64,000 nt of DNA from assembly GCA_050011815.1 (NCBI GenBank), contig JBEKIJ010000012.1:18974-82973 (forward strand), written 5' to 3'. How positions within the stretch are numbered: the first letter of the stretch is position 1; the number at the start of each line of letters is the position of its first letter. Made by a program: the position numbers and the translations under genes. Under the pieces are notes generated by a model. That model was not told where the DNA came from. It searched no databases and saw only the letters and a list, made by a program, of their open reading frames with translations. This document shows positions 18,630-32,606 of this stretch, piece after piece. Source of the DNA: Acidimicrobiales bacterium (lineage in GTDB: Bacteria > Actinomycetota > Acidimicrobiia > Acidimicrobiales > UBA8190).

Positions 18630-20150
18630 TCAGCTCCCGGGGACCGCCCACCGCAGTGACCGCTCGACGGCGTGGCGCCAGCCCTCATAGGCGCGATCGG
18701 CCGCCACCTCCGTGACCTGAGCCTCGAACCGGGCGTCGAGGGACCAGATCGACTCGAGGTCGCCCACCGTCTCCCACACGCCTTCGGCCACTCCCGCCAG
18801 CGTGGCGGCACCCAGGGCGGTGGTCTCGGTGGTGGTGGGACGGGCGACGGGCACGCGCAACTGGTCGGCTTGGTTCTGCAACAGGAGGTCGAGGACGGCC
18901 GCACCGCCGTCGACGCGCAAGGCGGCGAGCTCCGCCCCGGCCTTCTTCATGGCGTCGACCACGTCGCGCACCTGGTACGCCATGGCCTCGATCACGGCCC
19001 GGGCGATGTGGGCGGCTCCCACACCCCGGGTGAGACCGGTGATCGTCCCGCGCGCGTAGGGGTCCCACCACGGGCTGCCGAGCCCGGTGAAGGCGGGCAC
19101 CACGAAGACCCCCTCGCTGTCGTCGACCTGCTCGGCCAGCGGTCCGATGCCGGCCGCCTCCTCGATGAGGCCGAGCCCGTCGCGGAGCCACTGGATCGCC
19201 GCGCCCGTGACGAACACCGCGCCCTCGAGCGCGTAGGCCACCGGCGACGAGCCGCCGTGCTCGCCGAGGTCCCACGCCACCGTGGTGAGGAGGCCCTCGG
19301 AAGGCGGCGGGCACTCCTCACCGACGTTCAGCAGCACGAAGCTCCCCGTCCCATAGGTCACCTTGGCCATACCCGGTGACACACAGGCCTGGCCGAAGAG
19401 GGCGGCCTGCTGATCCCCGGCCACCCCGCTCACGGGCACACCGGCGATGGCGGGCGCCTGGTCGCCGAGCACTCCCCGCACCACACCGAACCGCCCGCAC
19501 GAGGGCCGCACCTCGGGGAGCGCGGCCCGGGGCACGCCCAAGATGTGACACAGCTCGTCGGACCAGCACCGCTCCCGGATGTCATAGAGCAAGGTGCGCG
19601 AGGCGTTGGTGGCATCGGTGACGACCGCCCCGCCGTCGGTGGCACCGGTGAGGTTCCAGATCAACCAGGCGTCGACGGTCCCGAGCACCAGGTCGTCGGT
19701 GACCTTCACCCCCCCGGGGCCGAGCAGCCACTCCATCTTGGTGCCCGAGAAGTACGGGTCGAGGACCAGGCCGGTGCGGGCGCGCACCACGGGAAGATGG
19801 CCCTCGGCGCGCAGCTGGTCGCATCGCTCGGCGGTGCGCCGGTCCTGCCACACGATGGCCCGGTGCAGCGGCTTCCCCGTGGCCCGGTCCCAGGCGACCA
19901 CGGTCTCTCGCTGGTTGGTGATGCCGATGGCCGCCACCGCGTGGCCCGCGGCGTGGCGGCGCCCGGCCACCTCGGCCACCGTGGTCACCACCGAGTCCCA
20001 GATCTCGGCCGGATCGTGCTCGACCCATCCTGGGCGGGGGTAGTACTGGGCGAGCTCGCGGTATGAGACGTCGATGACGGCCCCGGTCTCGTCGACGGCG
20101 AGGGCCCGGACGCCGGTCGTCCCCGCATCGATGGCGATCACGCAGGCCAC
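18630..20150 (-). CDS. glpK: Glycerol kinase
   Basis: A 506-aa version starting at the GTG of VACVIAIDAGTTG. FGGY-family signatures run throughout (WDRATGKP, GTSCF-like, VDGG). The 605-aa ORF includes an implausible N-terminal extension. Confidence 0.85.
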   Translation of the reverse strand: MACVIAIDAGTTGVRALAVDETGAVIDVSYRELAQYYPRPGWVEHDPAEIWDSVVTTVAEVAGRRHAAGHAVAAIGITNQRETVVAWDRATGKPLHRAIVWQDRRTAERCDQLRAEGHLPVVRARTGLVLDPYFSGTKMEWLLGPGGVKVTDDLVLGTVDAWLIWNLTGATDGGAVVTDATNASRTLLYDIRERCWSDELCHILGVPRAALPEVRPSCGRFGVVRGVLGDQAPAIAGVPVSGVAGDQQAALFGQACVSPGMAKVTYGTGSFVLLNVGEECPPPSEGLLTTVAWDLGEHGGSSPVAYALEGAVFVTGAAIQWLRDGLGLIEEAAGIGPLAEQVDDSEGVFVVPAFTGLGSPWWDPYARGTITGLTRGVGAAHIARAVIEAMAYQVRDVVDAMKKAGAELAALRVDGGAAVLDLLLQNQADQLRVPVARPTTTETTALGAATLAGVAEGVWETVGDLESIWSLDARFEAQVTEVAADRAYEGWRHAVERSLRWAVPGS

Positions 20151-20288
20151 GGTCGGGGACCCTATCCGGACCCCCAGGCACGACCCGGTGGGGCTCGACC
20201 CGCCCTCGCCGCGGGCCCCGGGTGCAAACCTTCGCGAACGGGTCGCGACCAGGGCCGACGCCGGACCGATCCCGTTGACACCTTCGTA

Positions 20289-20355
20289 ACTACAGTGCTG
20301 TAATGGCCCCTGCATCTGGTAGGCCCCACAGGGGAGACCACAACATCTTGTGGTC
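20289..20355. promoter_or_regulatory. Two palindromes resembling NrdR boxes upstream of nrdJ, in the glpK-nrdJ divergent region
   Basis: The two sites are TACAG-tg-CTGTA (20291-20302) and ACCACAAcatcTTGTGGT (20338-20355). The second has perfect 8-bp arms and resembles the NrdR consensus acaCwAtATaTwGtgt. They lie 85-150 bp upstream of the nrdJ ATG. Confidence 0.35.
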
Positions 20356-20440
20356 TGGGGGGGACGACGGGCCGGGGGGCCCTGTTCCTCTCCCGGGGGC
20401 CCACACCTACGCTGGGAACCAAGGAAAGGGACCAACGAAC

Positions 20441-23400
20441 ATGGCAATCGCTCCGCAGCGGACCGCTATCGGCATTCGGCGGTACTTCACCACCGAAGGG
20501 GTCCACCCCTACGACGAGCTCGCATGGGACCGGCGCGATTCGCGCATCACCGACTACCGCGACGGCAGCATCGCCTTCGAGCAGCTCGAGGTCGAGGTGC
20601 CTGTCACCTGGAGCCTCAACGCCACCAACATCCTGGCCCAGAAGTACTTCCGGGGGACCCCCGGCACCGCCGAGCGCGAGACCTCGTTGAAGCAGGTGGC
20701 CGACCGGGTGGTGGACACCATCACCGCCTGGGGCATCAAGGACGGCTACTTCGAGGACGACGCCGAGGCGCAGACCTTCAGCGACGAGCTCAAGCACATC
20801 ATCGTGAACCAGCGGGCCGCATTCAACTCCCCGGTGTGGTTCAACATCGGTGTGAAAGGTGTCCCGCAGCAGGCCAGCGCGTGTTTCATCCTTGCCGTCG
20901 ACGACTCGATGGACTCGATCCTCAACTGGTACCGGGAAGAAGGCATCATCTTCAAGGGTGGTTCGGGCGCCGGCGTGAACCTGTCGAGCATCCGCGCCTC
21001 GGTCGAACGGCTCCAAGGCGGCGGTACCGCTTCGGGCCCGGTGTCGTTCATGCGCGGAGCCGACGCCTCGGCGGGGACGATCAAGTCCGGTGGCAAGACC
21101 CGCCGGGCCGCCAAGATGGTCATCCTCAACGACGACCACCCCGACATCGAGGACTTCATCTGGTGCAAGGCCCTCGAGGAGCGCAAGGCGCGGGTCCTTC
21201 GCGACAGCGGGTTCGACATGGACCTCGACGGATCCGACTCGTTCTCCATCCAGTACCAGAACGCCAACAACTCGGTGCGCGTGACCGACGAGTTCATGCA
21301 GGCCGTCCTCGACGACGCCGACTGGGCCCTCACGGCCCGCACCGACGGCTCGGCGGTCCGTATCGTCAAGGCTCGAGACCTGTTCCGCCAGATCGCCCAC
21401 GCCGCCTGGGAATGCGCCGACCCCGGCATGCAGTTCGACACGACCATCAATCGCTGGCACACGGCCCCCAACGCCGGCCGGATCAACGGCAGTAACCCTT
21501 GCTGCTTCGTGGGTGAGACAGAGGTCGTAACAGCCGATGGTCGGCTTTCTATCGCCGAACTGGCCCTCCGTTGTGAGCTGGGTGAGGACGCGCCGAACGT
21601 CGTCGCCTTCGATCTCACCAAGAGTGAGCTGGTCATGCCCGAGATGGTCAAGGCTTGGGTTGCGGGATACACGTCAGACCTCGTAGAGGTCACCACTGAC
21701 CGGGGTCGCTTGCGCTGTACGCCTGAGCATCCTTTCCTGACCATGACAGGCGAGTTTGTGCACGCACAGTCACTCGTTCCTGGAACGAGGCTTCACGGCC
21801 TTGAGGGTACTGAGCGGATCGTGTCCGTAGGCAGGCTCCGTTTGGAACAAGAAGTCCCCGTATACGACCTGGAGGTGGCGGGGGTTCACAACTTCGCCGT
21901 TGCGACCAGTGACTCCACCGGAGTCATCGTCCACAACAGCGAGTACATGCACATCGACAACAGCGCCTGCAACCTGGCCTCGATCAACCTGCTCAAGTAC
22001 CTCCGCGAGGACGACAGCTTCGACGCCGAGAGCTTCAACGCCACGGTGGACGTCGTGTTCACGGCGCAGGAGATCCTGGTCGGCAACGCCGACTACCCGA
22101 CCGAGAAGATCGCCGAGAACTCGCGCCGGTACCGTGAGCTCGGCCTCGGATACGCGAACCTGGGTGCCCTCCTCATGGCCCAGGGCCTGCCCTATGACTC
22201 CGACGAGGGTCGGGCCTGGGCCGCGTCGATCACGGCCCTCATGACGGGCCACGCCTACGCCGTGTCCGCTCGGACGGCGTCGCGCATGGGCCCCTTCGCC
22301 GGCTTCCACGCCGATCGCGAGGCGATGCTCAACGTGCTGCAGATGCACCGCGCCGAGGTCGCCAAGATCGACGAGGAGCTCGTTCCCATGGATCTGCTCT
22401 CCGCCGCTCAGGAAGCGTGGGACGATGCCGTCGAGCTCGGAGAGCAGTTCGGCGTGCGCAACTCCCAGGCCAGCGTCCTCGCCCCGACAGGAACCATCGC
22501 CCTGATGCTCGACTGTGACACCACCGGTGTCGAGCCCGACCTCGGCCTCGTGAAGACGAAGAAGCTCGTCGGTGGTGGGACCATGTCCATCGTCAACCAG
22601 ACGGTGCCCCGTGCCCTGGCGAGGCTCGGCTACATGCCCGAGCAGGTCGACGACATCATCTCCTACATCGACGAGCACAAGTCGATCGTGGGTGCCCCGC
22701 ACCTGGCGAGCGAGCACATGGCCGTGTTCGCCTGCTCGATGGGCGACAACACGATCCATTACACGGGGCACGTCCGCATGATGGGTGCCGTCCAACCGTT
22801 CATCAGCGGCGCCATCAGCAAGTGCGTCGTGGGTGACACCCTGCTTGCCACTACCGACGGGCTCATCCGTATCGGTGGCCTGCACCAGGGCGAGAGTCCC
22901 GACAGCTTCCGCGACGAGATCCTCGCCGTGGCGTCGATCGGTGGCATCCACAAGACCGACGCCTTCTACTACGGCGGTGTCCGCCCGGTGCGTCGGGTGG
23001 TGCTCCGTTCCGGCCACGCCGTCACCGGAACCCCGAACCACCGGGTGCTGACCGCGGGGGCGACGGGCCTCGACTGGAAGCGTCTCGACCAGGTCGAGCC
23101 GGGCGATTACGTGGCCTCGAAGTACGGGGACGAGTTGTGGTCGGAACTTCCCGCCCGTTTCGACGACTTCACGCCGACTCGCTCCTACGGCTCCCAGAAG
23201 ACGGTCCGGATCCCCGACGAGATGACGGACCCGCTGGCGTTCCTGCTCGGCGCCTACGCATCCGAGGGCCATACCTCGCGTTCGACGTGGACGATAGTCA
23301 TCACGAACTCCGAGGACGCCGTCCTGGAGGAGATCGCTGAGGCCGCTCGCGTGTGCTTCGACGTCGAAGCCAAGATCCGCCGTCCCGCGGACCGTTGCCC

Positions 23401-25081
23401 GAGCGTTGAGATCTCCTCGAAGACGATCGTCGAGTTCTTCGAGTACCTGGGATGCGGCGCACGGGCTTCGGCCAAGCGGATCCCCGATGCGGTGCTTCGT
23501 TCCCCCCGGGAGCTCGTGCTCTCGTTCCTCCAGGGTCTCGCCCTCGACGCCTACACCAGTGACGCCACGACGACGAAATGGGCGATCTGCCTCGACGCGC
23601 CCGCGCTCCTCGATGACCTGCAGGCGGTCCTGACCAACCTGGGCGTGGTGCACGGCCGGATCAGCAAGTCCAACAAGCTCAACGGCAAGACCTACGACGA
23701 GGTCTATGCCGCGGGTGTCCACGCCAAGAAGATGGTCGAGCTCGCCCCCTTCCTCGAGGCCCACAAGTCGGCAGCCGCCGCCCGCATGGTGGCCGGCATC
23801 ACGGAGACGCATCACAACACGGCTGACGTGGTGCCGGGGATCACGCCGGGCGAGCTCTATGCGCTCGTTCCCTACCGACGTCGCAACGAGCTCGGCGTCC
23901 TTCTCCGGACCGAGTTCAGCTTCCTGGCCGATCGTCGCACCAGGTTCGTGAGCCGGGAGACGGTCGCACGGGTGGCTCGCATCGAAGGCGTCACCCTCCC
24001 CGAATGGCTGGGCCAGGTCCTCGACGACAACCTTCACTTCAGCCCTGTGGCATCGGTGGACGATGCCGGTGCGCGCGAGGTATTCGACGTGTCGGTGCCA
24101 TACACGCATGCCTTCGTCGCCAACGGGATCGTCAACCACAACACGGTGAACCTGCCCGAGGACGTCACCGTCGAGGACATCGAGCAGCTGCACCTCGACG
24201 CCTGGCGCCTGGGGATCAAGGCCGTCGCCATCTATCGCGACAACTGCAAGGTGGGACAGCCCCTTTCCACCACCAAGAAGGCCGGCGTGGGTGAGGGTGG
24301 CGACTTCGCCCCGCCCGGATCTGATGCCGAAGCCCGTGACCGCGCCGCCGCGGCCCGGATCTCCGAGCTCGAGGCGGCCCTCGCCCACGAGCAGGGCCGG
24401 GCCCACGACACGGTGGTGGTGGGAGCGGTGCGCGAGCGCCTGCCCCGGCGTCGCAAGTCCAGCACCTTCGCTTTCCGAGTGGCCGACTGCGAGGGGTACG
24501 TGACCGTTGGGGAGTACGACGACGGTCGGCCCGGTGAGGTGTTCATGAAGGTCTCCAAGCAGGGCTCCACCCTGGCGGGGATCATGGACGCCTTCTCGAT
24601 CTCGGTCAGCCTGGGTCTGCAGCACGGGGTGCCGCTGGCCACTTATGTCCGCAAGTACTCGAACATGCGTTTCGAGCCCGCGGGGATCACCGATGACCCC
24701 GAACTCCGCATCGCCACCAGCCTGTTGGACTACATCTTCCGCCGGCTGGCGGTGGACTACCTGCCGCTCAGCGAGCGCGAGGAGCTCGGTGTGTTGTCGA
24801 CAGTGGAGCGGATGCAGCCGACCCTGCCCGGTGTGGAAGAAGCCGCCACGCCTGAACAGGACCTCGTCGAGGACTCGGGGATCAGCTCGGTGCCGCCGAC
24901 GGGACGCAGCGACCGGACCTCGGCGGTGTACCGCACGTCGTCACCGTCTACCTCCGGCTCGGCGACGGCACGGGCCGAGCAGAGCAACGCACCCCTGTGT
25001 TACCAGTGCGGGATGGTCATGCAGCGAGCAGGGTCCTGCTACCTGTGCACGAGCTGCGGGACGACGAGCGGCTGTTCGTAG
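20441..25081 (+). CDS. nrdJ: Vitamin B12-dependent (class II) ribonucleotide reductase interrupted by two in-frame inteins
   Basis: RBS AAGGAAAGG 8 bp upstream. Has the NrdJ N-terminal region, the active-site NPC motif, the AISK-TVNLPED region and a C-terminal CxxC...CxxC zinc ribbon. Two insertions are each bounded by an N-terminal Cys and a terminal HN followed by Ser or Thr. Confidence 0.9.
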   Translation: MAIAPQRTAIGIRRYFTTEGVHPYDELAWDRRDSRITDYRDGSIAFEQLEVEVPVTWSLNATNILAQKYFRGTPGTAERETSLKQVADRVVDTITAWGIKDGYFEDDAEAQTFSDELKHIIVNQRAAFNSPVWFNIGVKGVPQQASACFILAVDDSMDSILNWYREEGIIFKGGSGAGVNLSSIRASVERLQGGGTASGPVSFMRGADASAGTIKSGGKTRRAAKMVILNDDHPDIEDFIWCKALEERKARVLRDSGFDMDLDGSDSFSIQYQNANNSVRVTDEFMQAVLDDADWALTARTDGSAVRIVKARDLFRQIAHAAWECADPGMQFDTTINRWHTAPNAGRINGSNPCCFVGETEVVTADGRLSIAELALRCELGEDAPNVVAFDLTKSELVMPEMVKAWVAGYTSDLVEVTTDRGRLRCTPEHPFLTMTGEFVHAQSLVPGTRLHGLEGTERIVSVGRLRLEQEVPVYDLEVAGVHNFAVATSDSTGVIVHNSEYMHIDNSACNLASINLLKYLREDDSFDAESFNATVDVVFTAQEILVGNADYPTEKIAENSRRYRELGLGYANLGALLMAQGLPYDSDEGRAWAASITALMTGHAYAVSARTASRMGPFAGFHADREAMLNVLQMHRAEVAKIDEELVPMDLLSAAQEAWDDAVELGEQFGVRNSQASVLAPTGTIALMLDCDTTGVEPDLGLVKTKKLVGGGTMSIVNQTVPRALARLGYMPEQVDDIISYIDEHKSIVGAPHLASEHMAVFACSMGDNTIHYTGHVRMMGAVQPFISGAISKCVVGDTLLATTDGLIRIGGLHQGESPDSFRDEILAVASIGGIHKTDAFYYGGVRPVRRVVLRSGHAVTGTPNHRVLTAGATGLDWKRLDQVEPGDYVASKYGDELWSELPARFDDFTPTRSYGSQKTVRIPDEMTDPLAFLLGAYASEGHTSRSTWTIVITNSEDAVLEEIAEAARVCFDVEAKIRRPADRCPSVEISSKTIVEFFEYLGCGARASAKRIPDAVLRSPRELVLSFLQGLALDAYTSDATTTKWAICLDAPALLDDLQAVLTNLGVVHGRISKSNKLNGKTYDEVYAAGVHAKKMVELAPFLEAHKSAAAARMVAGITETHHNTADVVPGITPGELYALVPYRRRNELGVLLRTEFSFLADRRTRFVSRETVARVARIEGVTLPEWLGQVLDDNLHFSPVASVDDAGAREVFDVSVPYTHAFVANGIVNHNTVNLPEDVTVEDIEQLHLDAWRLGIKAVAIYRDNCKVGQPLSTTKKAGVGEGGDFAPPGSDAEARDRAAAARISELEAALAHEQGRAHDTVVVGAVRERLPRRRKSSTFAFRVADCEGYVTVGEYDDGRPGEVFMKVSKQGSTLAGIMDAFSISVSLGLQHGVPLATYVRKYSNMRFEPAGITDDPELRIATSLLDYIFRRLAVDYLPLSEREELGVLSTVERMQPTLPGVEEAATPEQDLVEDSGISSVPPTGRSDRTSAVYRTSSPSTSGSATARAEQSNAPLCYQCGMVMQRAGSCYLCTSCGTTSGCS
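21503..21937 (+). mobile_element. Mini-intein 1 (145 aa, no endonuclease domain) inserted after the catalytic NPC of NrdJ
   Basis: Starts CFVGETEVVTADG (block A) and ends GVIVHN, followed by the +1 Ser (SEYMHIDNSACNL). The extein NPC|SE junction corresponds to the conserved NPCGE active-site loop. GC content is visibly lower than in the flanking extein sequence. Confidence 0.8.
22823..24142 (+). mobile_element. Intein 2 (440 aa) with a LAGLIDADG homing endonuclease, inserted after AISK of NrdJ
   Basis: Starts CVVGDTLLATTDG and ends FVANGIVNHN, followed by the +1 Thr (TVNLPED). Two LAGLIDADG-type motifs are present (LAFLLGAYASEGH and LVLSFLQGLALDAY). Confidence 0.8.
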
Positions 25082-25116
25082 TAGGACAGGCTCGCTGGCG
25101 AGAGCACGCTTCGGAT

Positions 25117-25170
25117 GCCTACCCGGTGCCCGTGACCACGAGAGGTCATGACACCGGGTAGGCGCTTTTC
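25117..25170. terminator. Bidirectional hairpin terminator between convergent nrdJ and the repeat-protein gene
   Basis: GCCTACCCGGTG (25117-25128) and CACCGGGTAGGC (25152-25163) form perfect 12-bp arms, followed by a CGCTTTTC tract. Confidence 0.5.
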
Positions 25171-25179
25171 AACAGCCTC

Positions 25180-26343
25180 TTAGTGCGAACGGTGTCCCGA
25201 GCTGTGACCGAAGTATTCCGGCCCGTTCGTAGGTGCCCCCGACCCGAACCCGCCGTGGTTGCTCGTGGCATGACCTTTCGGCCCCGACACGTCTGGCGAC
25301 CCTCCGGCCACTGATCCTCTCGGGCTCCCGAATACGGCGTGGGGCTTGGGTGTCGTGGGTGGGGAGGGAACCACGAACACGCTGGTGGCGGTCACGGTGC
25401 CGCTCGAGATGGTGCCAAAGGCGCCCACCTGCTCACCCACGCACACGTTGACGAACGTCGGTGCGCTCACGCCGTGCTCGGAGAAGGTCGTGGTGGTGCT
25501 CACGTCGACGGTGAAGGTCGAACTGTGGAACCCGTTCAAGGTGAACGTCCCCGCCGTGGCCGCCACCCCACAGGTGCCGGTGGTGCTCGTCCCGTTGACC
25601 GAAGCCACCGTCCCGAAGGCGGCGTGGGGCTTGGGCGTCGGGGGCGGCGTCACGAACACGCTGGTGGCGCTCACGGTGCCGCTCGAGATCATGCCGAAGG
25701 CGCCCACCTTCTCACCCACGCACACGTTGACGAACGTCGGTGCGCTCACGCCCTTCTCGGAGAAGGTCGTCGTGGTGCTCACGTCGACGGTGAAGGTCGT
25801 GCTGGGGAACCCGTTCAAGGTGAACGTCCCCGCCGTGGCCGCCACCCCACAGGTGCCGGTGGTGCTCGTCCCGTTGACCGAGGCCACCGTTCCGAAGACG
25901 GCGTGGGGCTTGGGCGTCGGGGGCGTCGTCACGAATACGCTGGTGGCGCTCACCGTGCCGCTCGAGATCATGCCGACGGCACCCACCTTCTCACCCACGC
26001 AGACGTTGGCGAAGGTCGGTGTGCTCACGCCGTGCTCGGAGAAGGTCGTCGTGGTGCTCACGTCGACGGTGAAGGTCGTGCTGGGGAGCGCGTCCAAGAC
26101 GAAAGCTCCCGCGGTGGCGGCGACGCCACATGTGCCGGTGGTGCTCGTCCCGTTGACCGAGGCCACCGTTCCGAAGACGCCCGTTGGCGCGTCGCGATGA
26201 TGGTGACGGCCATGGTGGCCGCTGCCGGTCGAGAGCCCACCCGAAGCACGCAACGTCGTTGCCGACGCCGCTGCGCCGGAGAGCAGGACCACCGCCAGTG
26301 TCGCCAAAATGGCGATCTTTGCCATGCGCCATGTTCTGGACAT
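25180..26343 (-). CDS. Secreted repetitive protein: signal peptide, His-rich termini and three ~90-aa tandem repeats
   Basis: Has a signal peptide (MAKIAILATLAVVLLSGAAASA) and a His cluster (HHGRHHHRD). It contains three near-identical repeats (AVFGTVASVNGTSTTGTCGVAATAG...NVCVGEKVGA.GMISSGTVSATSVFVT.PPTPKPH), each with two Cys, and a His/Gly-rich C-terminal tail. Confidence 0.6.
   Translation of the reverse strand: MSRTWRMAKIAILATLAVVLLSGAAASATTLRASGGLSTGSGHHGRHHHRDAPTGVFGTVASVNGTSTTGTCGVAATAGAFVLDALPSTTFTVDVSTTTTFSEHGVSTPTFANVCVGEKVGAVGMISSGTVSATSVFVTTPPTPKPHAVFGTVASVNGTSTTGTCGVAATAGTFTLNGFPSTTFTVDVSTTTTFSEKGVSAPTFVNVCVGEKVGAFGMISSGTVSATSVFVTPPPTPKPHAAFGTVASVNGTSTTGTCGVAATAGTFTLNGFHSSTFTVDVSTTTTFSEHGVSAPTFVNVCVGEQVGAFGTISSGTVTATSVFVVPSPPTTPKPHAVFGSPRGSVAGGSPDVSGPKGHATSNHGGFGSGAPTNGPEYFGHSSGHRSH
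25330..26175. repeat. About 279-bp tandem DNA repeat, three copies, inside the repeat-protein gene
   Basis: Near-identical units begin at ~25327, ~25621 and ~25900 (ggcgtggggcttggg...ccgaagacg). Confidence 0.7.
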
Positions 26344-26659
26344 GAATCCCCCCTGTGTTGAGTGCAGATCGCTCGGTCCGTCGCTGGCAGGCCGAGTCGC
26401 CCGTCCCCCCGCCGATGTTCCGGTGGACGAGCCGAGCGTGTAATGGCTGTTGAGGCACCTTTGCCCGAATACGTGGTCTTGTAAACACCCTATGTGATAA
26501 TTGTGACACTCGCCGCTTAGCGTCACCGAGGCACCGACCGCGAAGAAGGGCCGTGACCAGGCAGTTCATCTGAGATGCGCGCAGCGGAGCGGGAATCCCA
26601 GGATTCAGACAACGACTCGGGGCGCGGTGGATCGCCCTACCGCAAGAGCTCCCGGAGGG

Positions 26660-27862
26660 TCACGGTTCGGCTCGGATGGGCAGGTATTCGAACCGGCGGG
26701 TGAACGGCCCCGGTGCGTAACGGCCTGCGGAGCTGTCCACGACGAAATCGGGCGCCATCCGCAGCAGTTCCTCGATGACGACCCGGCCTTCGAGCCGGGC
26801 CGCGGCGGCTCCCAGACAATGGTGCGGCCCCGAGCTGAAGGCCAAGGTACGAGCCACGGTGCGGGTGACGTCGAGGCTGCCCGCATCGGGCCCGAACTCC
26901 CGAGGGTCCCGGTTGGCCGAGGCGAACAGCAGGTGGACCTTGTGATCGGCGGGGATCCTGACCGCCGCCTCGGCGGGACCGACGGTCACGTCCGTGGTGG
27001 TGGTGCGCGACAGCCCCTGGACAGGGGAGAGGAACCGCAAGAGCTCCTCCACAGCCCCGGCGACGAGTCCCCCGTCGGCGGAGAGGAGTCGACGTTGGTC
27101 AGGGTGTTCGCTCAGGAGGGCGGCGGTTCCCCCGATCAGTCCCGCCGCGGTGTCGTTGCCGCCGGCGATCATGACGAAGCAGAACCCCAGGATCTCTTCG
27201 AGGCTCACCGGACGTCCGTCGATCTCGGACTCGAGGAGCACCGAGATCATGTCGGGGCAGGAGTGCCCCTTCTTGGTTCCCGCCAGGTCGGTGAAGTACC
27301 CGTAGAGCTCTCCCACGGCCCGGCCGGCGGAGAGCACGTTCCCGCTGGCGTTGGCCTGGACGATGGCACTGCTCCAGGTGCCGAACGTGGACCGGTCGCT
27401 TTCGGGGACACCGAGGTAGTCGGCCACGACGAACGAGGGGACCGGTGTGGCGACTTCGGAGACGAAGTCGGCCTCTCCCATCTCGACGATGCGTTCGATG
27501 CACGACCTCGTGAACCGACGCAGGGAGTCCTCGCGCTCGGCCACGGCCCGCGGCGTGAACATGGCGTTGACCAATCGGCGGTAGAGGGTGTGGCGGGGCC
27601 GGTCCATCATGACCAAGGTGGGCATGAGCCCGAGCTTGGCGATCTCGTCCTCTTCGAAGGTCAGGCCCTGCGCCGAGGAGAAGGTCCCGGTGTCACAGGC
27701 CGCTGCCATCACATCCGCAAAACGCGACAGGACCCAGAATCCTCGCTTCTCGACGTGATGGACCGGGTCCTCGTCGCGCAGGCGCTCGTAGGTGGGGTAG
27801 GGGTCGCGCCACAGGTCGGGGTCGAGGGGGTCGTAGGCGAGGGTTCCGGCAGCGGTGGTCAT
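26660..27862 (-). CDS. Cytochrome P450
   Basis: 401 aa with RBS AAGGAGA 7 bp upstream. Has the heme-binding FSSGPHHCLGAAAA loop, an EELLR (ExxR) motif and an AGGNDT I-helix. Confidence 0.85.
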   Translation of the reverse strand: MTTAAGTLAYDPLDPDLWRDPYPTYERLRDEDPVHHVEKRGFWVLSRFADVMAAACDTGTFSSAQGLTFEEDEIAKLGLMPTLVMMDRPRHTLYRRLVNAMFTPRAVAEREDSLRRFTRSCIERIVEMGEADFVSEVATPVPSFVVADYLGVPESDRSTFGTWSSAIVQANASGNVLSAGRAVGELYGYFTDLAGTKKGHSCPDMISVLLESEIDGRPVSLEEILGFCFVMIAGGNDTAAGLIGGTAALLSEHPDQRRLLSADGGLVAGAVEELLRFLSPVQGLSRTTTTDVTVGPAEAAVRIPADHKVHLLFASANRDPREFGPDAGSLDVTRTVARTLAFSSGPHHCLGAAAARLEGRVVIEELLRMAPDFVVDSSAGRYAPGPFTRRFEYLPIRAEP

Positions 27863-27932
27863 CGCGGCGCTCTCCTTCGACGGGACGGACACGGCGAGAG
27901 TACTGGGACGAGCTCGGCCCGCACCGCAGCGG

Positions 27933-28823
27933 CTACCGAAGCCGACGCAAAGTTCCGGCCGGGCTCGCCGGCACGGCACCGGGATGAAGCGCCGACGCCA
28001 GGATCTCCACGCCGTCGACGAGACGGGGTCCCGGCCGTGAGAAGTACGAACTGGCATCCACGGCGAAAAACGCCTGCACTCCCGCCAGCTCGGCCCGATC
28101 CAGCAGAGGGGTGGCTTCGAGCGCGGCGGCTTCGAGGTCATACCCGCAGGGCATGAACACGACCACTTCGGGCGAGGCCGAGACGATCTGCTCCCAGGTG
28201 ACCCGGACCGACGGGGTGCCCCGGCTGGCCAGGACGGCTTCGCCTCCGGCGAGCTCGATCATCTCGGGGACCCAGTGGCCGCCGTTGAAGGGAGGATCGG
28301 ACCACTCGAGGGCGAACGTCCGGGGCTCGTCCCTCCCGGCCACCTTGGCGGCGACGAAGTCCAGCCTGGCCCGCAGGACCTCGACGAGCTCGGAGGCCAC
28401 GGACTCCGTCCCGGTGGCGGCGCCGACCTGCACGAGGCAATCCAGGACGTCGCCGAGCGAGCTCGGATCCATGGAGAGGACCTCGGCGCGACACCCCAGG
28501 AGCTCGAGGGCCTCGTTCACGTGTCCAGAGGGCACGGCGCACACCGCACACAGGTCCTGGGTGAGCACGAGATCGGGGCGAAGCTCTCGGACCGCCTCGT
28601 TGTCCAGCCGGTAGATCGGCTCACCCCCGCCGATGGAGGCGCTGACGAGGCGGTCCACCTCGGCCGGGTCCGAGGCGTCGGGAAGCGTGGAGAACGACAC
28701 CGATCGCTTGGTGCGGGCGCCAGGGGGCCAGTCGCATTCGTGGGTCACCCCCACCAGGTCGTCCTCCAGGCCCAGGGCGTAGACGATCTCGGTGGCCGAC
28801 GGCAGCAGGGAGAGGATCCGCAT
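27933..28823 (-). CDS. BtuF/TroA-like (cluster A-II) substrate-binding protein lacking a signal peptide (cobalamin-binding-protein-like)
   Basis: The MRILSLLPSATEIVYALG N-terminus and overall periplasmic-binding-protein (type III) pattern match BtuF-like proteins. There is no hydrophobic leader and no adjacent permease or ATPase. Confidence 0.6.
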   Translation of the reverse strand: MRILSLLPSATEIVYALGLEDDLVGVTHECDWPPGARTKRSVSFSTLPDASDPAEVDRLVSASIGGGEPIYRLDNEAVRELRPDLVLTQDLCAVCAVPSGHVNEALELLGCRAEVLSMDPSSLGDVLDCLVQVGAATGTESVASELVEVLRARLDFVAAKVAGRDEPRTFALEWSDPPFNGGHWVPEMIELAGGEAVLASRGTPSVRVTWEQIVSASPEVVVFMPCGYDLEAAALEATPLLDRAELAGVQAFFAVDASSYFSRPGPRLVDGVEILASALHPGAVPASPAGTLRRLR

Positions 28824-28875
28824 GGCGCGATCGTGGCCCACCCGCGCCCGTGGCGCTAGTGCGGCAGTCCGAGTG

Positions 28876-29649
28876 CTACCGGGGTCGGTGGCCGATCACG
28901 GTCACGAGGCCCACGGGAAGGGTCTCCTGACCGAACGACGCCAGGATCGAAGCGTCCACGCCGTGCCGCGCCAGGAGCGTCGGGACACGGGCCGTGTCGA
29001 CCAGGACGTTGTGGTGGGTCTCGTCGTCGCGCCGCCACGAGTCGTCGCTGTTCCTGAGAAAGGTCGTCATCTCCCGGACGAAGCGGTTGGGCGACGGGAT
29101 CGAGAATTCGGTCACGATCATCCAGCCGTCGCCCCGCCGCACCTGTGTCGGTGCCCCCTGGCGAAAGCGCCCGTACTCGACGTCGCACAGGTCGATGGCG
29201 AGAACGCCGCCGGGCCGCAGCGCTCCCGCCAGCGCCGCCAGGGCCCGGTCGACCGAATCCTCGTCGTCGAGGTAGCTCAGGACGTGACCCACCGACACGA
29301 TGGCGTCGGCGCCCGGGACAGGGTCGTCGGGGAGGCGCAGGGGTCGGATGTCCTCGGCGCCGGTCGCGTACTGCCGTGCCAACTCGAGCATGGCGTTCGA
29401 CGCGTCGGTGGCGATCACCCGGTGCCCGGCATCCACCAGGTGTTTAGTCAACAGGCCGCTGCCACATCCGATCTCGACCACGAGACCGTTGCGGTCGCGG
29501 ACCGGAGCCAAGAGCTCGAGAATCCCCGGAGCACAGGCGTCGGCGTGGAATCCGAACCCGAGATGGTGGATGCGTGCCAGGTCGTCGCGGTAATAGGGAT
29601 CGCGTGTCTCGGGCCCGTCCATGCCCTCAGTATCGCTCGTACCGGGCAC
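28876..29649 (-). CDS. Class I SAM-dependent methyltransferase
   Basis: Motif I (VVEIGCGSGLL) is followed by motif post-I (IATDAS) and motif II (PGGVLAI). Confidence 0.7.
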   Translation of the reverse strand: MPGTSDTEGMDGPETRDPYYRDDLARIHHLGFGFHADACAPGILELLAPVRDRNGLVVEIGCGSGLLTKHLVDAGHRVIATDASNAMLELARQYATGAEDIRPLRLPDDPVPGADAIVSVGHVLSYLDDEDSVDRALAALAGALRPGGVLAIDLCDVEYGRFRQGAPTQVRRGDGWMIVTEFSIPSPNRFVREMTTFLRNSDDSWRRDDETHHNVLVDTARVPTLLARHGVDASILASFGQETLPVGLVTVIGHRPR

Positions 29650-29685
29650 GCGGGCCCGGGCACGTCGGCTCGGCGGTCAGCGCGA

Positions 29686-30042
29686 CTACCGCTTCTGGCG
29701 CCCTTCGAGGGTCACGATCTCGGCGACGTGTCTCTTGACCCGGTCCCGCCCCATGTCGAACAGCGACGGCTGGACCGGTGCCGCGGGCGAACCCGTCTCT
29801 GGCTCTGCATCATCGGCCCCGTCTTCGAGGATCTGGATCAGTGCGGGCGCTTGGTCGGCCGGCAGCCGGAACGTCGCCCGACAGATCGAGCCGTGCCACA
29901 GGCTGACGATCACCAGTCCCTCATGGGAGTGCCAGGAGACCTCCATCCGCCTTCCGTCGTCACGCGCGTCGCTGAACCACTGGCGGCGGACTCCGTCGGG
30001 GTGAGGAAGCAGCACCACCCTCATCATGGACCCGCCGACCAA
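29686..30042 (-). CDS. Hypothetical protein
   Basis: 118-aa ORF on the same strand as, and immediately downstream of, the methyltransferase. No recognisable motif. Confidence 0.35.
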   Translation of the reverse strand: MVGGSMMRVVLLPHPDGVRRQWFSDARDDGRRMEVSWHSHEGLVIVSLWHGSICRATFRLPADQAPALIQILEDGADDAEPETGSPAAPVQPSLFDMGRDRVKRHVAEIVTLEGRQKR

Positions 30043-30210
30043 CCGGGGGCTAGAGGGAAGGACTTTGCAAACGCGTTACAAGGTCTCGGGTCCCGGCTCC
30101 TCCGGAGCATGTGATCCCGGATGCAACCAGAGAAATCCCCGATGTCGTAACCTCGGCCCTGGAGCTCTCTGGACCCGGCTCCATGGCTTCGTCGCCCGGG
30201 AGGCCGAGCA

Positions 30211-30963
30211 ATGAACCCGAACACCGACCGAGTTGGCACCCTCATCGGCCGCCGCGGGGCGCGGGCAATCGCCGCCCTTGTCGTGTTGGGGGGATTTGGG
30301 CTCACCGGGTGCAGCGTCGTGAACGCAGTCAAGAAGGTCGAGCATGACGTGAGGGGCAACAAGGCGACGATCGATGCCTTCACGAACAAGATCAACTCCA
30401 GCCAGGGGGCGACCTTCGAAGCCACCTACGCCACCACCGGTAGCTCGCCGGCGACGGTCGTCTACGCCGTCGAACCGCCACAGGGCCTCGCCTTCGAGGT
30501 CACCCCCACGGGAACGAGTACGAGCAGTGTGCACATCATCGTGAACACGTCCGGGGAGTACTCCTGCACCGCCTCGAATGGTTCGAGCTCAGGGCCGGCC
30601 TGTCAGAAGTTGGGAACGGCCGACGCCGCCGCCGAGAACAGGATCTTCGACCTCTACACCCCGGCACACTGGACCGCATTCCTCAAGGACTTCTCGCTCG
30701 CCGCCGGCTTGGCCGGCGACACGGTCACGTCGTCGGCCACGACGGTGAACGGATTCGCCATGCAGTGCGTCGACTTCCAGGCATCGGGGGTGGCGGGCAC
30801 GAGCACGATCTGCACGACTGCTCAAGGCATCTTGGGCTTTGTCCAGGTGGCGTCGGACTCGACCAGTTTCGAGCTCAAGAGCTATTCGCCGTCGCCGCCG
30901 GACTCCCTGTTCGAGCTGCCCCCCGGCGCGACCATCACCACCTCCCCCCCGACGACGTCGTAG
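30211..30963 (+). CDS. Putative lipoprotein (Ser/Thr-rich, secreted)
   Basis: Signal peptide with the lipobox LTGC at residues ~29-32. The mature domain is Thr/Ser-rich with four Cys. GC is somewhat below the window average. Confidence 0.6.
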   Translation: MNPNTDRVGTLIGRRGARAIAALVVLGGFGLTGCSVVNAVKKVEHDVRGNKATIDAFTNKINSSQGATFEATYATTGSSPATVVYAVEPPQGLAFEVTPTGTSTSSVHIIVNTSGEYSCTASNGSSSGPACQKLGTADAAAENRIFDLYTPAHWTAFLKDFSLAAGLAGDTVTSSATTVNGFAMQCVDFQASGVAGTSTICTTAQGILGFVQVASDSTSFELKSYSPSPPDSLFELPPGATITTSPPTTS

Positions 30964-31151
30964 GGCGGCTCCTGGGGCCGCCTCTCGGACGCTTCTGGGA
31001 CGGGAGCCGGGTCCGGTTCGTGGTTGTCGTCCGACCACGAGCTCCGTCCCGATCGGGGCGCTTCGCCGGCAGATACGATCGGGGCGCAAGCCAGGACGTG
31101 AAGCCCTGTGCATACACTGCTGGCAGTGACCTTGAGGAGTTCGGCACTTCG

Positions 31152-31364
31152 ATGATCGACGATGACTTGACGGGCATGGTGGGGCGTGTCTCGGTTCCGA
31201 TTCCCACTGATGGATCGGGGGAAGTCATATTGAGCGTCCGAGGTGGATCCGAGGCCTTCACGGCCTACACGCAAGGCAATGAGGCCCTGACCAAGAATGC
31301 CCGCGCTGTCGTCGTCGAGCAGACGGGTCCGCGCACAATCTTGGTTACAGCCGCTGGGTATTGA
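31152..31364 (+). CDS. NfeD-like C-terminal OB-fold domain protein (short form)
   Basis: GMVGRVSVPIPTDGSGEVILSVRGGSEAFTAYTQGNEALTKNARAVVVEQTGPRTILV matches the NfeD beta-barrel domain. It sits directly upstream of a flotillin gene, which is the classic NfeD-SPFH pairing. No TM segment is seen, so this may be a remnant or a short form. Confidence 0.45.
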   Translation: MIDDDLTGMVGRVSVPIPTDGSGEVILSVRGGSEAFTAYTQGNEALTKNARAVVVEQTGPRTILVTAAGY

Positions 31365-31394
31365 TCGTCTTCCTTTTGAGAAGGGTCCGACATC

Positions 31395-32606
31395 ATGTTC
31401 TTCTACCGAATCCCCGAGCCCAACCAAGCGCTTGTCATCTCCGGATCCAAAGGTGGCGCCGACGGCGCCCAGTTCCGGATCGTCACCGGTCACGGCACCT
31501 TCGTCGCCCCTTGGCGGTCGCGAGCACGGATCTTGTCCCTCGATCTCTACGAGGCCGAGCTCGAAGAGAGCTGCGTGACCGGCCAGGGCATCCCGCTGAC
31601 GGTCCAGGCGGTCGCCGTCTTCAAGGTCGCTGACGATTTTCAGTCCATCGCCAACGCCGCCCGGCGTTTCCTCGACCAGCAGGACCAGATGGAGTCCCTC
31701 GTGGGCCAGATCCTGGCCGGCCACCTGCGGTCGATCGTGGGCAGTCTCACCGTCGAGAAGATCATCACGGACCGAAACAGCCTGGCACAGGAGGTGAAGT
31801 CTGCGTCATCGGACGAGATGGAGAAGCTCGGGCTCGTCGTCGACGCCTTCCAGATCCAAGAGGTGGGCGACCCCTCGGGATACATCAAGAACCTGGCCGC
31901 GCCGCACATCGCCGAAGTGGAGAAGAACGCCCGCATCGCGCAGGCCCAGGCGGACCAGGCCGCCACCGAACGAGAGCAGGAGGCCAACGCCCAGAAGGCC
32001 GGGTTCACGAGGGACTCCGAGATCAAGCAGGCCGGTGCTCGGGCCGAGGTCCAGGCCGCCCAGGCCGAAGCCGATCAGGCCGGGCCCCTCTCGCAGGCCA
32101 AGGCCGCCCAGAAGGTGACCGAGGAGCAGGCGGCCCTGGCGGCCAAGCAGGCCGAGAAGCGCCAGGCCGAGCTGGTCGCCGAGGTTCAGAAGCCCGCTGA
32201 CGCCGAGGCGTACAAGACGGTCAAGTTGGCCGAGGCACAACGCGATGCCATGCGAGCGCAAGCCGACGCGCTGGGCGAGGGAAACCTCGAGCGGATCGTC
32301 GCCTCGAAGATGGTCGAGATGATGCCGGCCATCGTGGCGTCACTGGCCCAAGGTCTCAGCGGCGCCAACCTGAGTGTGGTGAACGGAGCCGAAGGCGTCG
32401 GACAGGTCGTCACGGGGTTGGTGGCGTCGGGACGATCGATCTACGACGCCTTGTTGTCGGCGGTTCCCGGTGCCGTTCCCCTGGCGTCAGCCGACGAGGT
32501 GGCCCTGGTGCCGAGCCGGGAGCTGGCCACCGCCCCAGACGGAGCGGTGCATGCGGACCAGCAGGACGGGGATGTCCGGGGCCCCCGGCTCCGCCCCGCA
32601 CCCTGA
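31395..32606 (+). CDS. Flotillin-like SPFH/band-7 protein
   Basis: An N-terminal SPFH domain is followed by a long Ala/Glu/Gln-rich coiled-coil region (flotillin EA repeats: AQAQADQAATEREQEANAQKA...). Confidence 0.85.
   Translation: MFFYRIPEPNQALVISGSKGGADGAQFRIVTGHGTFVAPWRSRARILSLDLYEAELEESCVTGQGIPLTVQAVAVFKVADDFQSIANAARRFLDQQDQMESLVGQILAGHLRSIVGSLTVEKIITDRNSLAQEVKSASSDEMEKLGLVVDAFQIQEVGDPSGYIKNLAAPHIAEVEKNARIAQAQADQAATEREQEANAQKAGFTRDSEIKQAGARAEVQAAQAEADQAGPLSQAKAAQKVTEEQAALAAKQAEKRQAELVAEVQKPADAEAYKTVKLAEAQRDAMRAQADALGEGNLERIVASKMVEMMPAIVASLAQGLSGANLSVVNGAEGVGQVVTGLVASGRSIYDALLSAVPGAVPLASADEVALVPSRELATAPDGAVHADQQDGDVRGPRLRPAP

What the first reader, a model, noticed from the sequence alone, without database searches (positions are those of the whole stretch)
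26660..30042. P450, orphan BtuF-like binding protein, SAM methyltransferase and unknown gene next to B12-dependent nrdJ
Four same-strand genes form a compact unit: a cytochrome P450, a periplasmic-binding-protein-fold protein of the BtuF/TroA class, a class I methyltransferase and a 118-aa unknown. The binding protein has no signal peptide and no partner permease or ATPase.

A cytoplasmic BtuF-like protein would more plausibly be a ligand carrier (corrinoid, heme or siderophore) than a transporter component. Together with the P450 and methyltransferase it could form a small tailoring or scavenging module.

Co-localisation with a B12-dependent RNR raises the possibility of a corrinoid-handling role.
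Basis: inference. Interest (0 to 1): 0.5.

Follow-up and report, generated by a model that had tools for sequence, protein, structure and literature searches.

The report
Signal-less, four-cysteine BtuF-like protein beside a P450
The four genes are real but are not one conserved module; the interesting one is a vitamin-B12-binding-protein look-alike with no export signal and four invariant cysteines, from a large unstudied family that elsewhere sits in B12-controlled uptake and salvage operons.

Summary
On the minus strand lie a 400-aa P450, a 296-aa Peripla_BP_2 protein, a 248-aa class I SAM methyltransferase and a 113-aa unknown, with gaps of 52-70 nt. B12-dependent nrdJ lies 1.6 kb away on the other strand.

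The four-gene module is not supported. Synteny splits it into [unknown-methyltransferase] and [binding protein-P450]. The P450 pairing is kept only where the binding protein is at least 79% identical (5/5 genomes). It is absent in four relatives at 71-77% and in 120 loci from many phyla.

The P450 is CYP130-family (49% identical to M. tuberculosis CYP130). The unknown is a clade-restricted ORFan.

The binding protein cannot have a signal peptide. It belongs to a large signal-less family with invariant C30, C92, C95 and C226, all absent from BtuF and haem binders.

A corrinoid link has independent support. Family members are repeatedly fused into operons with DUF71-B12 PP-loop enzymes and DUF6580 membrane proteins. 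One such operon follows a cobalamin riboswitch and a TonB receptor. Close relatives sit beside cobB or a cobalamin riboswitch.

The most likely role is an intracellular corrinoid carrier. Ligand binding and the role of the cysteines are untested.

The parts
27933..28823 (-). Signal-less BtuF/haem-SBP-fold protein, 296 aa, with the invariant four-cysteine signature C30, C92-x-x-C95 and C226
   Evidence: Pfam Peripla_BP_2 E=3.5e-19. AlphaFold2 pLDDT 97.6. Best folds are PhuT, ShuT and BtuF at TM about 0.7. Cysteines are invariant in 123 + 73 sequences. No room for a signal peptide.
26660..27862 (-). Cytochrome P450 of the CYP130 family, 400 aa. Adjacent to the binding protein only in close relatives.
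   Evidence: PDB 2wh8/2uuq CYP130 E=1.6e-100, 188/383 identical. Haem-thiolate motif FSSGPHHCLG, EELLR and I-helix AGGNDT are read in the sequence. Orthologues 81-95% identical sit next to the binding protein in L004 and L129-L131.
28876..29622 (-). Class I SAM-dependent methyltransferase, 248 aa, generic. Belongs to a separate synteny block with the 113-aa gene.
   Evidence: Pfam Methyltransf_25/12/11/23. All NCBIfam hits are far below cutoffs. Orthologues in L129, L130 and L131; displaced from the binding protein in L130; absent in L004.
29686..30027 (-). 113-aa clade-restricted protein of unknown function
   Evidence: No Pfam, NCBIfam or PDB hit. Only 64 homologues in 5.8 billion proteins, all at least 55% identical. 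Stays with the methyltransferase or the 250-aa lipoprotein gene, not with the binding protein.
20441..25081 (+). nrdJ, class II B12-dependent ribonucleotide reductase with inteins. A neighbour, not part of the unit.
   Evidence: Pfam Ribonuc_red_2_N, Ribonuc_red_lgC, Intein_splicing, LAGLIDADG_3 and TSCPD
25180..26526 (-). Intervening gene for a Thr/Ser-rich repeat protein with an N-terminal hydrophobic segment. It separates nrdJ from the P450.
   Evidence: GC3 0.84. 279-bp unit x 2.9 copies, 92% matches. No significant Pfam hit.

Best explanation
The locus is a lineage-specific juxtaposition of two small synteny blocks, not a dedicated four-gene pathway.

Block 1 holds a clade-restricted 113-aa ORFan and a generic SAM methyltransferase. 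Block 2 holds the BtuF-like protein and a CYP130-family P450.

The BtuF-like protein is an intracellular member of the tetrapyrrole-binding branch (BtuF, ShuT, PhuT) of the class III binding-protein fold. It has lost its export signal and its transporter. It has gained a 25-residue insertion and four invariant cysteines. These lie on loops at the C-terminal ends of beta-strands, three in the N-lobe and one in the C-lobe, which is the side that lines the inter-lobe cleft.

Most likely mechanism (inferred): it captures a corrinoid in the cytoplasm and hands it on. In other lineages the recipient would be the adjacent DUF71-B12 PP-loop enzyme. In this organism the recipients would be B12 users such as NrdJ. 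The cysteine site either ligates the cobalt or holds a metal or Fe-S centre.

What is shown: fold, lack of signal, cysteine invariance and the genomic associations. What is inferred: ligand identity, cleft location of the cysteines and the hand-off.

The P450 is an orphan monooxygenase. Its adjacency is probably shared ancestry, possibly co-transcription.
For: Fold and family:
- Searches place the protein in the BtuF/haem-SBP fold.
- The family has 1147 clusters (50% identity) at E<1e-30. Most start at residue 1 of the fold.
- Invariant residues are Q89, C92, C95, W174, P177, W184 and C226; C30 is at 98% or more.
- In an independent set of 73 genes from many phyla: C30 72/72, C92 73/73, C95 73/73, C226 71/71.
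- DSSP on the model places every cysteine 3-7 residues after a strand end.

B12 context:
- DUF71 (Pfam Diphthami_syn_2) with the DUF71-B12 signature CGE-x-GEFH is the only neighbour that recurs across phyla. It appears in 7-8 of 120 loci in five phyla, often with overlapping stop and start codons.
- In the reverse search, 11 of 80 DUF71 loci carry a four-cysteine signal-less binding protein.
- DUF6580, the four-cysteine protein and DUF71 lie in that order in 7 loci.
- L168 has cobalamin riboswitch, TonB receptor, DUF6580, four-cysteine protein and DUF71 in order on one strand.
- Cobalamin riboswitches also lie next to the gene in L106, L112, L132 and L192.
- cobB is divergent by 46 nt in L213, whose binding protein is 77% identical to the window's.
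- DUF71-B12 was predicted to act in B12 salvage (PMC3541065).

Split of the module.
Against: - Clustering of the four cysteines in one site is inferred from topology only.
- About 90% of family members, including the window's, stand alone with no B12 gene nearby. The window has no riboswitch, DUF71 or DUF6580.
- The DUF71-B12 link to B12 is itself a prediction, and it rests partly on neighbours annotated as BtuF, so part of the argument is circular.
- A thiolate-rich site is more typical of Zn, Fe or Fe-S than of a corrinoid pocket.
- The BtuF N-lobe region that includes the C92-x-x-C95 segment does not align.
- The riboswitch enrichment in the unbiased sets is modest (3 of 61 loci) and lacks a formal control.
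Confidence: 0.5

Rival explanations
1. The four genes form one functional tailoring or scavenging module for a corrinoid or other tetrapyrrole, with the P450 oxidising, the methyltransferase methylating and the binding protein carrying the substrate.
For: The genes share a strand, have gaps of 52-70 nt and no detectable terminator between them. The trio of methyltransferase, binding protein and P450 is kept in three genomes (the window's own, represented by L005, plus L129 and L131). nrdJ is nearby in those three.
Against: In L130 a 4-gene insertion, with two genes on the opposite strand, separates the methyltransferase from the binding protein. In L004 the methyltransferase is absent. There is no P450 or methyltransferase at 71-77% identity or in 120 wider loci. 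The methyltransferase scores 43 vs 180 bits for CpaM. I know of no P450 in B12 metabolism (own knowledge).
Confidence: 0.07
2. The binding protein is a cytoplasmic metal or iron-sulfur protein, either a TroA-like metallochaperone or a redox protein, with no corrinoid ligand. The B12 contexts would then reflect cobalt or general metal handling.
For: Four invariant cysteines come from both lobes, resembling the 2+2 metal sites of TroA/ZnuA-type proteins. Nitrogenase-type cluster proteins share the same superfamily (own knowledge of SCOP c.92.2). B12 riboswitches also control cobalt transporters, and CbiQ modules lie near the gene in L106 and L132. One fusion to a DCC1-like thiol-disulfide oxidoreductase exists.
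Against: The nearest sequence and fold relatives are B12 and haem binders, not TroA or ZnuA. The C-lobe motifs GHW and RPGPR are shared with Vibrio BtuF. The L168 operon starts with a TonB receptor of the kind that imports B12 rather than free metal. The partner DUF71-B12 is predicted to act on cobamides. A third signal-less class next to DUF71 lacks three of the four cysteines but keeps C226.
Confidence: 0.25
3. The binding protein and the P450 are a functional pair. The binding protein would deliver haem or a hydrophobic substrate to the CYP130-like enzyme, or serve as its Fe-S redox partner.
For: The pair survives in 5 of 5 genomes at 79% identity or more while the flanks on both sides change. 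Gaps are 17-151 nt on the same strand. No ferredoxin gene is nearby. The fold's closest solved relatives include haem binders.
Against: The pairing is confined to one shallow clade and may be simple inheritance. None of 120 other loci, including several from other Acidimicrobiia, has a P450. As far as I know, M. tuberculosis cyp130 is not next to such a gene (own knowledge).
Confidence: 0.12
4. The gene is a decaying remnant of an ordinary ABC importer whose permease and ATPase genes were lost.
For: It is an orphan with no partner genes.
Against: Conservation is strong: 71-100% identity in 120 clusters, all about 296 aa. The model has pLDDT 97.6. Residues are invariant across many phyla. The signal-less N-terminus is conserved across the family. 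No close relative has an adjacent FecCD permease.
Confidence: 0.02

Closest known systems
BtuF, the periplasmic vitamin B12-binding protein of the BtuCDF importer (E. coli 1N2Z, Vibrio cholerae 5YSC)
   Same: Same two-lobe class III fold with a long backbone helix (TM about 0.7). It is the best sequence match in the PDB (E=5e-14 for the single sequence, 1e-28 for the profile). N-terminal SLxPxxTE and C-lobe GHW and RPGPR motifs are shared.
   Different: No signal peptide and no BtuCD partner. A 25-residue insertion (about residues 49-73) and the C92-x-x-C95 loop have no counterpart in BtuF. Four invariant cysteines. The NCBIfam BtuF score is 45.7 against a cutoff of 234.
Periplasmic haem-binding proteins ShuT, PhuT, HmuT and BhuT
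   Same: Top Foldseek hits (2R79, 2R7A; E about 1e-15). Profile E=6e-20. They belong to the same tetrapyrrole-binding branch.
   Different: These are secreted proteins that work with ABC permeases, and they lack the cysteine signature. The region holding their axial Tyr did not align to this family.
DUF71-B12 gene clusters predicted for B12 salvage (de Crecy-Lagard et al. 2012, PMC3541065)
   Same: Members of the window protein's family lie directly beside DUF71 proteins carrying the ENGEF/YH-type signature. The paper reports 75 of 102 DUF71-B12 genes next to B12 transporter genes such as BtuCDF.
   Different: The passages of the paper I searched do not separate signal-less four-cysteine binding proteins from secreted BtuF. 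Here both kinds, plus a third signal-less class, are found beside DUF71. The window has no DUF71 gene.
CYP130 (Rv1256c) of Mycobacterium tuberculosis
   Same: The window P450 is 49% identical over 383 residues, with all P450 motifs intact.
   Different: To my knowledge CYP130 has no established physiological substrate and is not linked to a binding-protein gene. The adjacency here is restricted to one clade.

Membership tests
BtuF (B12 substrate-binding protein of the BtuCDF ABC importer) | Class III (Peripla_BP_2) two-lobe fold | tested here: met
   Pfam E=3.5e-19. Foldseek to 1N2Z and 5YSC, E about 1e-15, TM about 0.7.
BtuF (B12 substrate-binding protein of the BtuCDF ABC importer) | Export signal (Sec/Tat signal peptide or lipobox) | tested here: not met
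   An in-frame stop lies 24 codons upstream, and the only alternative start adds 6 residues. Family members start at the first strand of the fold.
BtuF (B12 substrate-binding protein of the BtuCDF ABC importer) | Cognate FecCD-type permease and ATPase encoded nearby | tested here: not met
   None within 10 kb in the window's contig. None in nine relatives. No recurrent FecCD among neighbours in 83 loci.
BtuF (B12 substrate-binding protein of the BtuCDF ABC importer) | Score above the curated NCBIfam BtuF equivalog cutoff | tested here: not met
   NF002894 gives 45.7 bits against a cutoff of 234.
BtuF (B12 substrate-binding protein of the BtuCDF ABC importer) | Binds cobalamin | not testable with these tools
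   Needs a binding assay or a holo-structure.
   The window protein carries all of these residues. Invariance is shown.
   Only the secondary structure of the model was returned. Coordinates and metal analysis are needed.
B12 uptake/salvage operon of TonB receptor, DUF6580, four-cysteine protein and DUF71-B12 | DUF71 and/or DUF6580 gene adjacent, or a cobalamin riboswitch upstream | tested here: not met
   HMM searches of the six-frame translated window found no DUF71 or DUF6580. There is no Rfam hit in the window, nor at E<=1 in 19000-31500.
Cytochrome P450, CYP130 family | More than 40% identity to a named member (P450 nomenclature rule) | tested here: met
   188 of 383 aligned residues (49%) are identical to M. 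tuberculosis CYP130, E=1.6e-100.
Cytochrome P450, CYP130 family | Haem-thiolate loop FxxGxHxCxG, ExxR, and I-helix acid-alcohol pair | tested here: met
   FSSGPHHCLG, EELLR and AGGNDT are read in the translation.
Class I SAM-dependent methyltransferase | Rossmann-like methyltransferase domain with a glycine-rich SAM motif | tested here: met
   Methyltransf_25/12/11 at E about 1e-13. Motif VEIGCGSG is read in the translation.
CpaM, corrinoid-protein-associated methyltransferase (NF043040) | Score above the curated cutoff | tested here: not met
   43.4 bits against a cutoff of 180.
NrdJ, class II B12-dependent ribonucleotide reductase | Ribonuc_red_2_N plus the barrel domain | tested here: met
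   PF08471 at 78 bits and PF02867 at 431 bits, plus intein domains.

The most novel reading that the evidence does not exclude
The signal-less four-cysteine BtuF-like proteins are the missing cytoplasmic leg of bacterial B12 trafficking. They would be soluble acceptors that take corrinoids from inner-membrane importers, including the uncharacterised DUF6580 proteins. They would use a thiolate or Fe-S site to hold or reduce the cobalt, then present the cofactor to DUF71-B12 remodelling enzymes or to B12-dependent enzymes such as NrdJ. The family spans more than ten phyla, and my searches found no publication on it or on DUF6580.
Probability: 0.35. Interest if true: 0.7.

Novelty: new variant of a known kind. 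Interest (0 to 1): 0.5.

Why it matters
How bacteria handle B12 after it crosses the inner membrane is poorly understood. Eukaryotes have dedicated chaperones such as CblC and CblD, but few bacterial equivalents are known.

A widespread intracellular BtuF-like protein with an invariant cysteine site would be a concrete and testable candidate. So would its recurrent partners, DUF71-B12 and DUF6580, some of which are under cobalamin riboswitches.

There is also an annotation point. Genes labelled 'cobalamin-binding protein' or 'iron complex transport substrate-binding protein' in this family are not transporter subunits.

For the window itself the lesson is cautionary. Tight same-strand spacing looked like a module, but comparison with relatives splits it.

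Tried and rejected
- The search for related loci with alignments A1 and A2 in genome contigs failed because no stretch could be back-translated specifically enough. It was replaced by a degenerate DNA pattern for EW.DPP...GHW.P.
- The afdb50 fold library was unavailable, so no UniProt-level relatives were obtained.
- The context look-up of P0148 returned only a 2-kb contig.
- Literature searches for cytoplasmic BtuF-like proteins, cd01144/TroA-like, DUF6580 and 'BtuF homolog' gave nothing relevant or zero hits. Two papers that cite the DUF71 study mention it only in their reference lists.
- The promoter and terminator scan of 26300-30400 was uninformative: no promoter-like site, and the one terminator-like site is on the wrong strand.
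- Domain fusions of long family members (DCC1-like, GGACT, PP-binding plus sulfotransferase, N_methyl) were single and heterogeneous, and may be gene-call artefacts. I did not use them as evidence.
- Rhomboid and pterin-4a-carbinolamine dehydratase neighbours recur only within Solirubrobacterales-type loci and were treated as lineage synteny.
- The 'importer remnant' idea was considered and rejected on conservation.
- The methyltransferase as CpaM or a daptide methyltransferase was rejected on score cutoffs.


Full report
**1. What is in the window**

The window has about 69% GC. The names attached to identical public proteins point to an Acidimicrobiales metagenome-assembled genome.

Third-codon-position GC picks out four minus-strand genes at exactly the reported coordinates. 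The same four products are called on identical public contigs.

- Cytochrome P450: 26660-27862, 400 aa.
- Peripla_BP_2 protein: 27933-28823, 296 aa.
- Class I SAM methyltransferase: 28876-29622, 248 aa.
- Protein without any family match: 29686-30027, 113 aa.

Gaps between the genes are 63, 52 and 70 nt.

nrdJ (20441-25081, plus strand) is a class II B12-dependent ribonucleotide reductase interrupted by inteins. It is convergent with the cluster. A gene for a repeat-rich protein (25180-26526) lies between them. There is no tRNA gene in the window. No Rfam family is detected at gathering thresholds anywhere in the window, or at E<=1 in 19000-31500.

**2. The binding protein has no signal peptide and no transporter**

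An in-frame stop lies 24 codons upstream of its ATG. The only other possible start adds six residues. In the AlphaFold2 model (pLDDT 97.6, pTM 0.94) the first strand begins at residue 3.

No FecCD permease or matching ATPase lies within 10 kb. None lies beside the orthologue in nine related genomes.

**3. It belongs to a large, distinct, signal-less family**

- The word-indexed search saturated at 8000 candidates. The best 120 clusters are 71-100% identical and nearly all 295-302 aa.
- The exhaustive search of 50%-identity representatives gave 1147 clusters at E<1e-30. Most align from their own residue 1.
- In a 123-sequence alignment (37-93% identity), Q89, C92, C95, W174, P177, W184 and C226 are invariant. 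C30, H183, E173, R263 and R267 are conserved at 90% or more.
They come from Actinomycetota, Chloroflexota, Planctomycetota, Verrucomicrobiota, Gemmatimonadota, Acidobacteriota, Armatimonadota, Bacteroidota, Nitrospirota, Pseudomonadota and others.
- In 73 full-length genes from that scan the four cysteines are invariant: 72/72, 73/73, 73/73 and 71/71.

The closest solved structures are haem binders (PhuT, ShuT) and BtuF, at TM about 0.7 and 21-24% identity. By sequence the best is Vibrio BtuF.

The C92-x-x-C95 loop and a roughly 25-residue insertion have no aligned counterpart in these proteins. The N-terminal SLxPxxTE motif and the C-lobe GHW and RPGPR motifs are shared.

Each cysteine follows the C-terminal end of a beta-strand in the model: strands 23-26, 85-88 and 220-223. 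In this fold that is the side lining the inter-lobe cleft. A single site built from three N-lobe cysteines and one C-lobe cysteine is therefore plausible. I could not measure distances, so this remains an inference.

**4. The four genes are not one conserved unit**

Orthologues were verified by BLASTP.

- The binding protein-P450 pair is present in all five genomes whose binding protein is at least 79% identical: the window's own (L005), L129, L131, L130 and L004. The genes on both flanks differ between these genomes.
- The methyltransferase is adjacent in three of the five. In L130 it is separated by four inserted genes, including an opposite-strand two-component system. In L004 it is absent.
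- The 113-aa gene stays with the methyltransferase, or in L004 with the divergent 250-aa lipoprotein gene.
- At 71-77% identity neither the P450 nor the methyltransferase is present.
- In the 120 wider loci no homologue of the P450, the methyltransferase or the 113-aa protein occurs at all.
- The 113-aa protein is a clade-restricted ORFan: 64 hits, all at least 55% identical.
- The P450 is 49% identical to M. tuberculosis CYP130, with intact motifs. To my knowledge CYP130 is an orphan enzyme.
- The methyltransferase is generic. Its hit to the corrinoid-protein-associated CpaM model is far below the cutoff.

**5. What the wider family says about function**

Clustering the neighbours of 83 family members shows no universal partner. 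The one neighbour that recurs across phyla is a PP-loop ATPase of Pfam Diphthami_syn_2 (DUF71). It is seen in Kuenenia, Methylococcales, Bacteroidota, Pseudomonadota, Acidobacteriota and Actinomycetota, often with overlapping stop and start codons.

These proteins carry CGE-x-GEFH. That is the ENGEF/YH signature by which de Crecy-Lagard et al. separated 'DUF71-B12' from diphthine-ammonia ligase. They predicted a B12 salvage role from clustering with btuCDF and cbiB and from anti-correlation with CbiZ (PMC3541065).

A reverse scan seeded with DUF71 returned 80 metagenomic loci. They fall into three groups.

- 11 have a four-cysteine signal-less protein adjacent (signature CQCCW[H/N]WCR).
- 10 have a classical BtuF with an obvious signal peptide.
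- 8 have a third, shorter signal-less class. It lacks C30 and the CxxC loop but keeps the C226 equivalent.

Seven loci have the order DUF6580, four-cysteine protein, DUF71.

- In L168 this trio follows a cobalamin riboswitch (103 bits) and a TonB-dependent receptor on the same strand.
- In L192 a unit of riboswitch, TonB receptor and DUF6580 converges on the DUF71-binding protein pair. That binding protein is 50% identical to the window's.

Cobalamin riboswitches also abut the gene elsewhere.

- L112: a divergent, riboswitch-controlled metE.
- L106: two riboswitch-led units, one including CbiQ.
- L132: 156 nt downstream of the stop codon of a binding protein 75% identical to the window's, ahead of a putative uptake locus with CbiQ and ABC ATPases.
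- L213 (77% identical): the gene is divergent by 46 nt from cobB (490 bits against a cutoff of 254), which is followed by a classical lipoprotein SBP.

In the sets not seeded with DUF71, riboswitches occur in 3 of 61 loci (about 0.5 Mb). By my rough knowledge of riboswitch density, one to two per Mb, this is a modest excess only. No formal control was run.

**6. Synthesis**

The corrinoid idea is the best-supported reading for the binding protein. The support comes from family-level context, not from the P450, the methyltransferase or, to any real degree, nrdJ.

About 90% of family members stand alone, including this one. The ligand is untested, and a thiolate-rich site could equally indicate a metal or Fe-S protein. 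I therefore put the corrinoid-carrier explanation at about 0.5 and the metal or Fe-S alternative at about 0.25.

The binding protein-P450 pairing may reflect co-transcription in this clade, but it is not distinguishable from inherited synteny.

**7. Novelty**

I found no paper on signal-less BtuF-like proteins or on DUF6580 in the searchable library. That library lacks most subscription journals. No family member has a solved structure by sequence search.

The fold and the general idea of a corrinoid-binding protein are known. The cytoplasmic location, the cysteine signature and the operon with DUF6580 and DUF71 make this a new variant of a known kind.

Noticed in passing
L168 104-4137; also L141 3516-5657, L151 3534-5657, L140, L149, L155, L192: A recurrent, apparently undescribed operon of DUF6580 (about 175-aa membrane protein with an HPWNF(T/A)P motif), the four-cysteine signal-less BtuF-like protein and a DUF71-B12 PP-loop enzyme. 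In L168 it follows a cobalamin riboswitch and a TonB-dependent receptor. DUF6580 is a candidate inner-membrane corrinoid transporter. Five further loci have DUF6580 directly next to DUF71 without the binding protein.
   Followed up: partly
L181 1866-2660, L163 993-1781, L182 2660-3448, L175 3062-3904, L202 5705-6487, L197, L210: A third class of Peripla_BP_2 protein lies just downstream of DUF71. It is about 262 aa and signal-less, starting MPRYPERIVCLTEETTE. It lacks C30 and the CxxC loop but keeps the C226-equivalent cysteine (WCG). It often lies in the same locus as a classical secreted BtuF upstream of DUF71.
   Followed up: partly
window 20441-25081 (+): nrdJ is interrupted by inteins. 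One is a short intein after the NPC motif. One is larger and carries a LAGLIDADG endonuclease domain. A relative (L131) has an even longer 1905-aa product with an extra PT-HINT domain.
   Followed up: partly
window 25180-26526 (-), repeat at 25372-26179: This gene encodes a Thr/Ser/Gly-rich protein with an N-terminal hydrophobic segment. It has 2.9 tandem copies of a 279-bp (93-aa) unit at 92% identity and no significant Pfam match. Gene calls differ between relatives (281-295 aa).
   Followed up: partly
L132 7047-7126 (+) and 7227-12832; L106 5287-7379 (-): Cobalamin riboswitches precede large (616-655 aa) proteins with weak SQHop_cyclase_C (prenyltransferase-like) matches; the L106 one looks secreted. 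CbiQ is present in both loci and ABC ATPases in L132. This may be an actinobacterial B12 uptake system.
   Followed up: no
L001 6977-9809 and L214 2978-5791: In relatives at 71-73% identity the binding protein sits in a different conserved same-strand run of DinB_2/MST, Cupin_2, binding protein and short-chain dehydrogenase. Its meaning is unknown.
   Followed up: no
window 30211-30963 (+): The divergent neighbour of the 113-aa gene is a 250-aa predicted lipoprotein (lipobox LTGCS) without any Pfam match. It is conserved (70-90% identity) in L004 and L129.
   Followed up: partly
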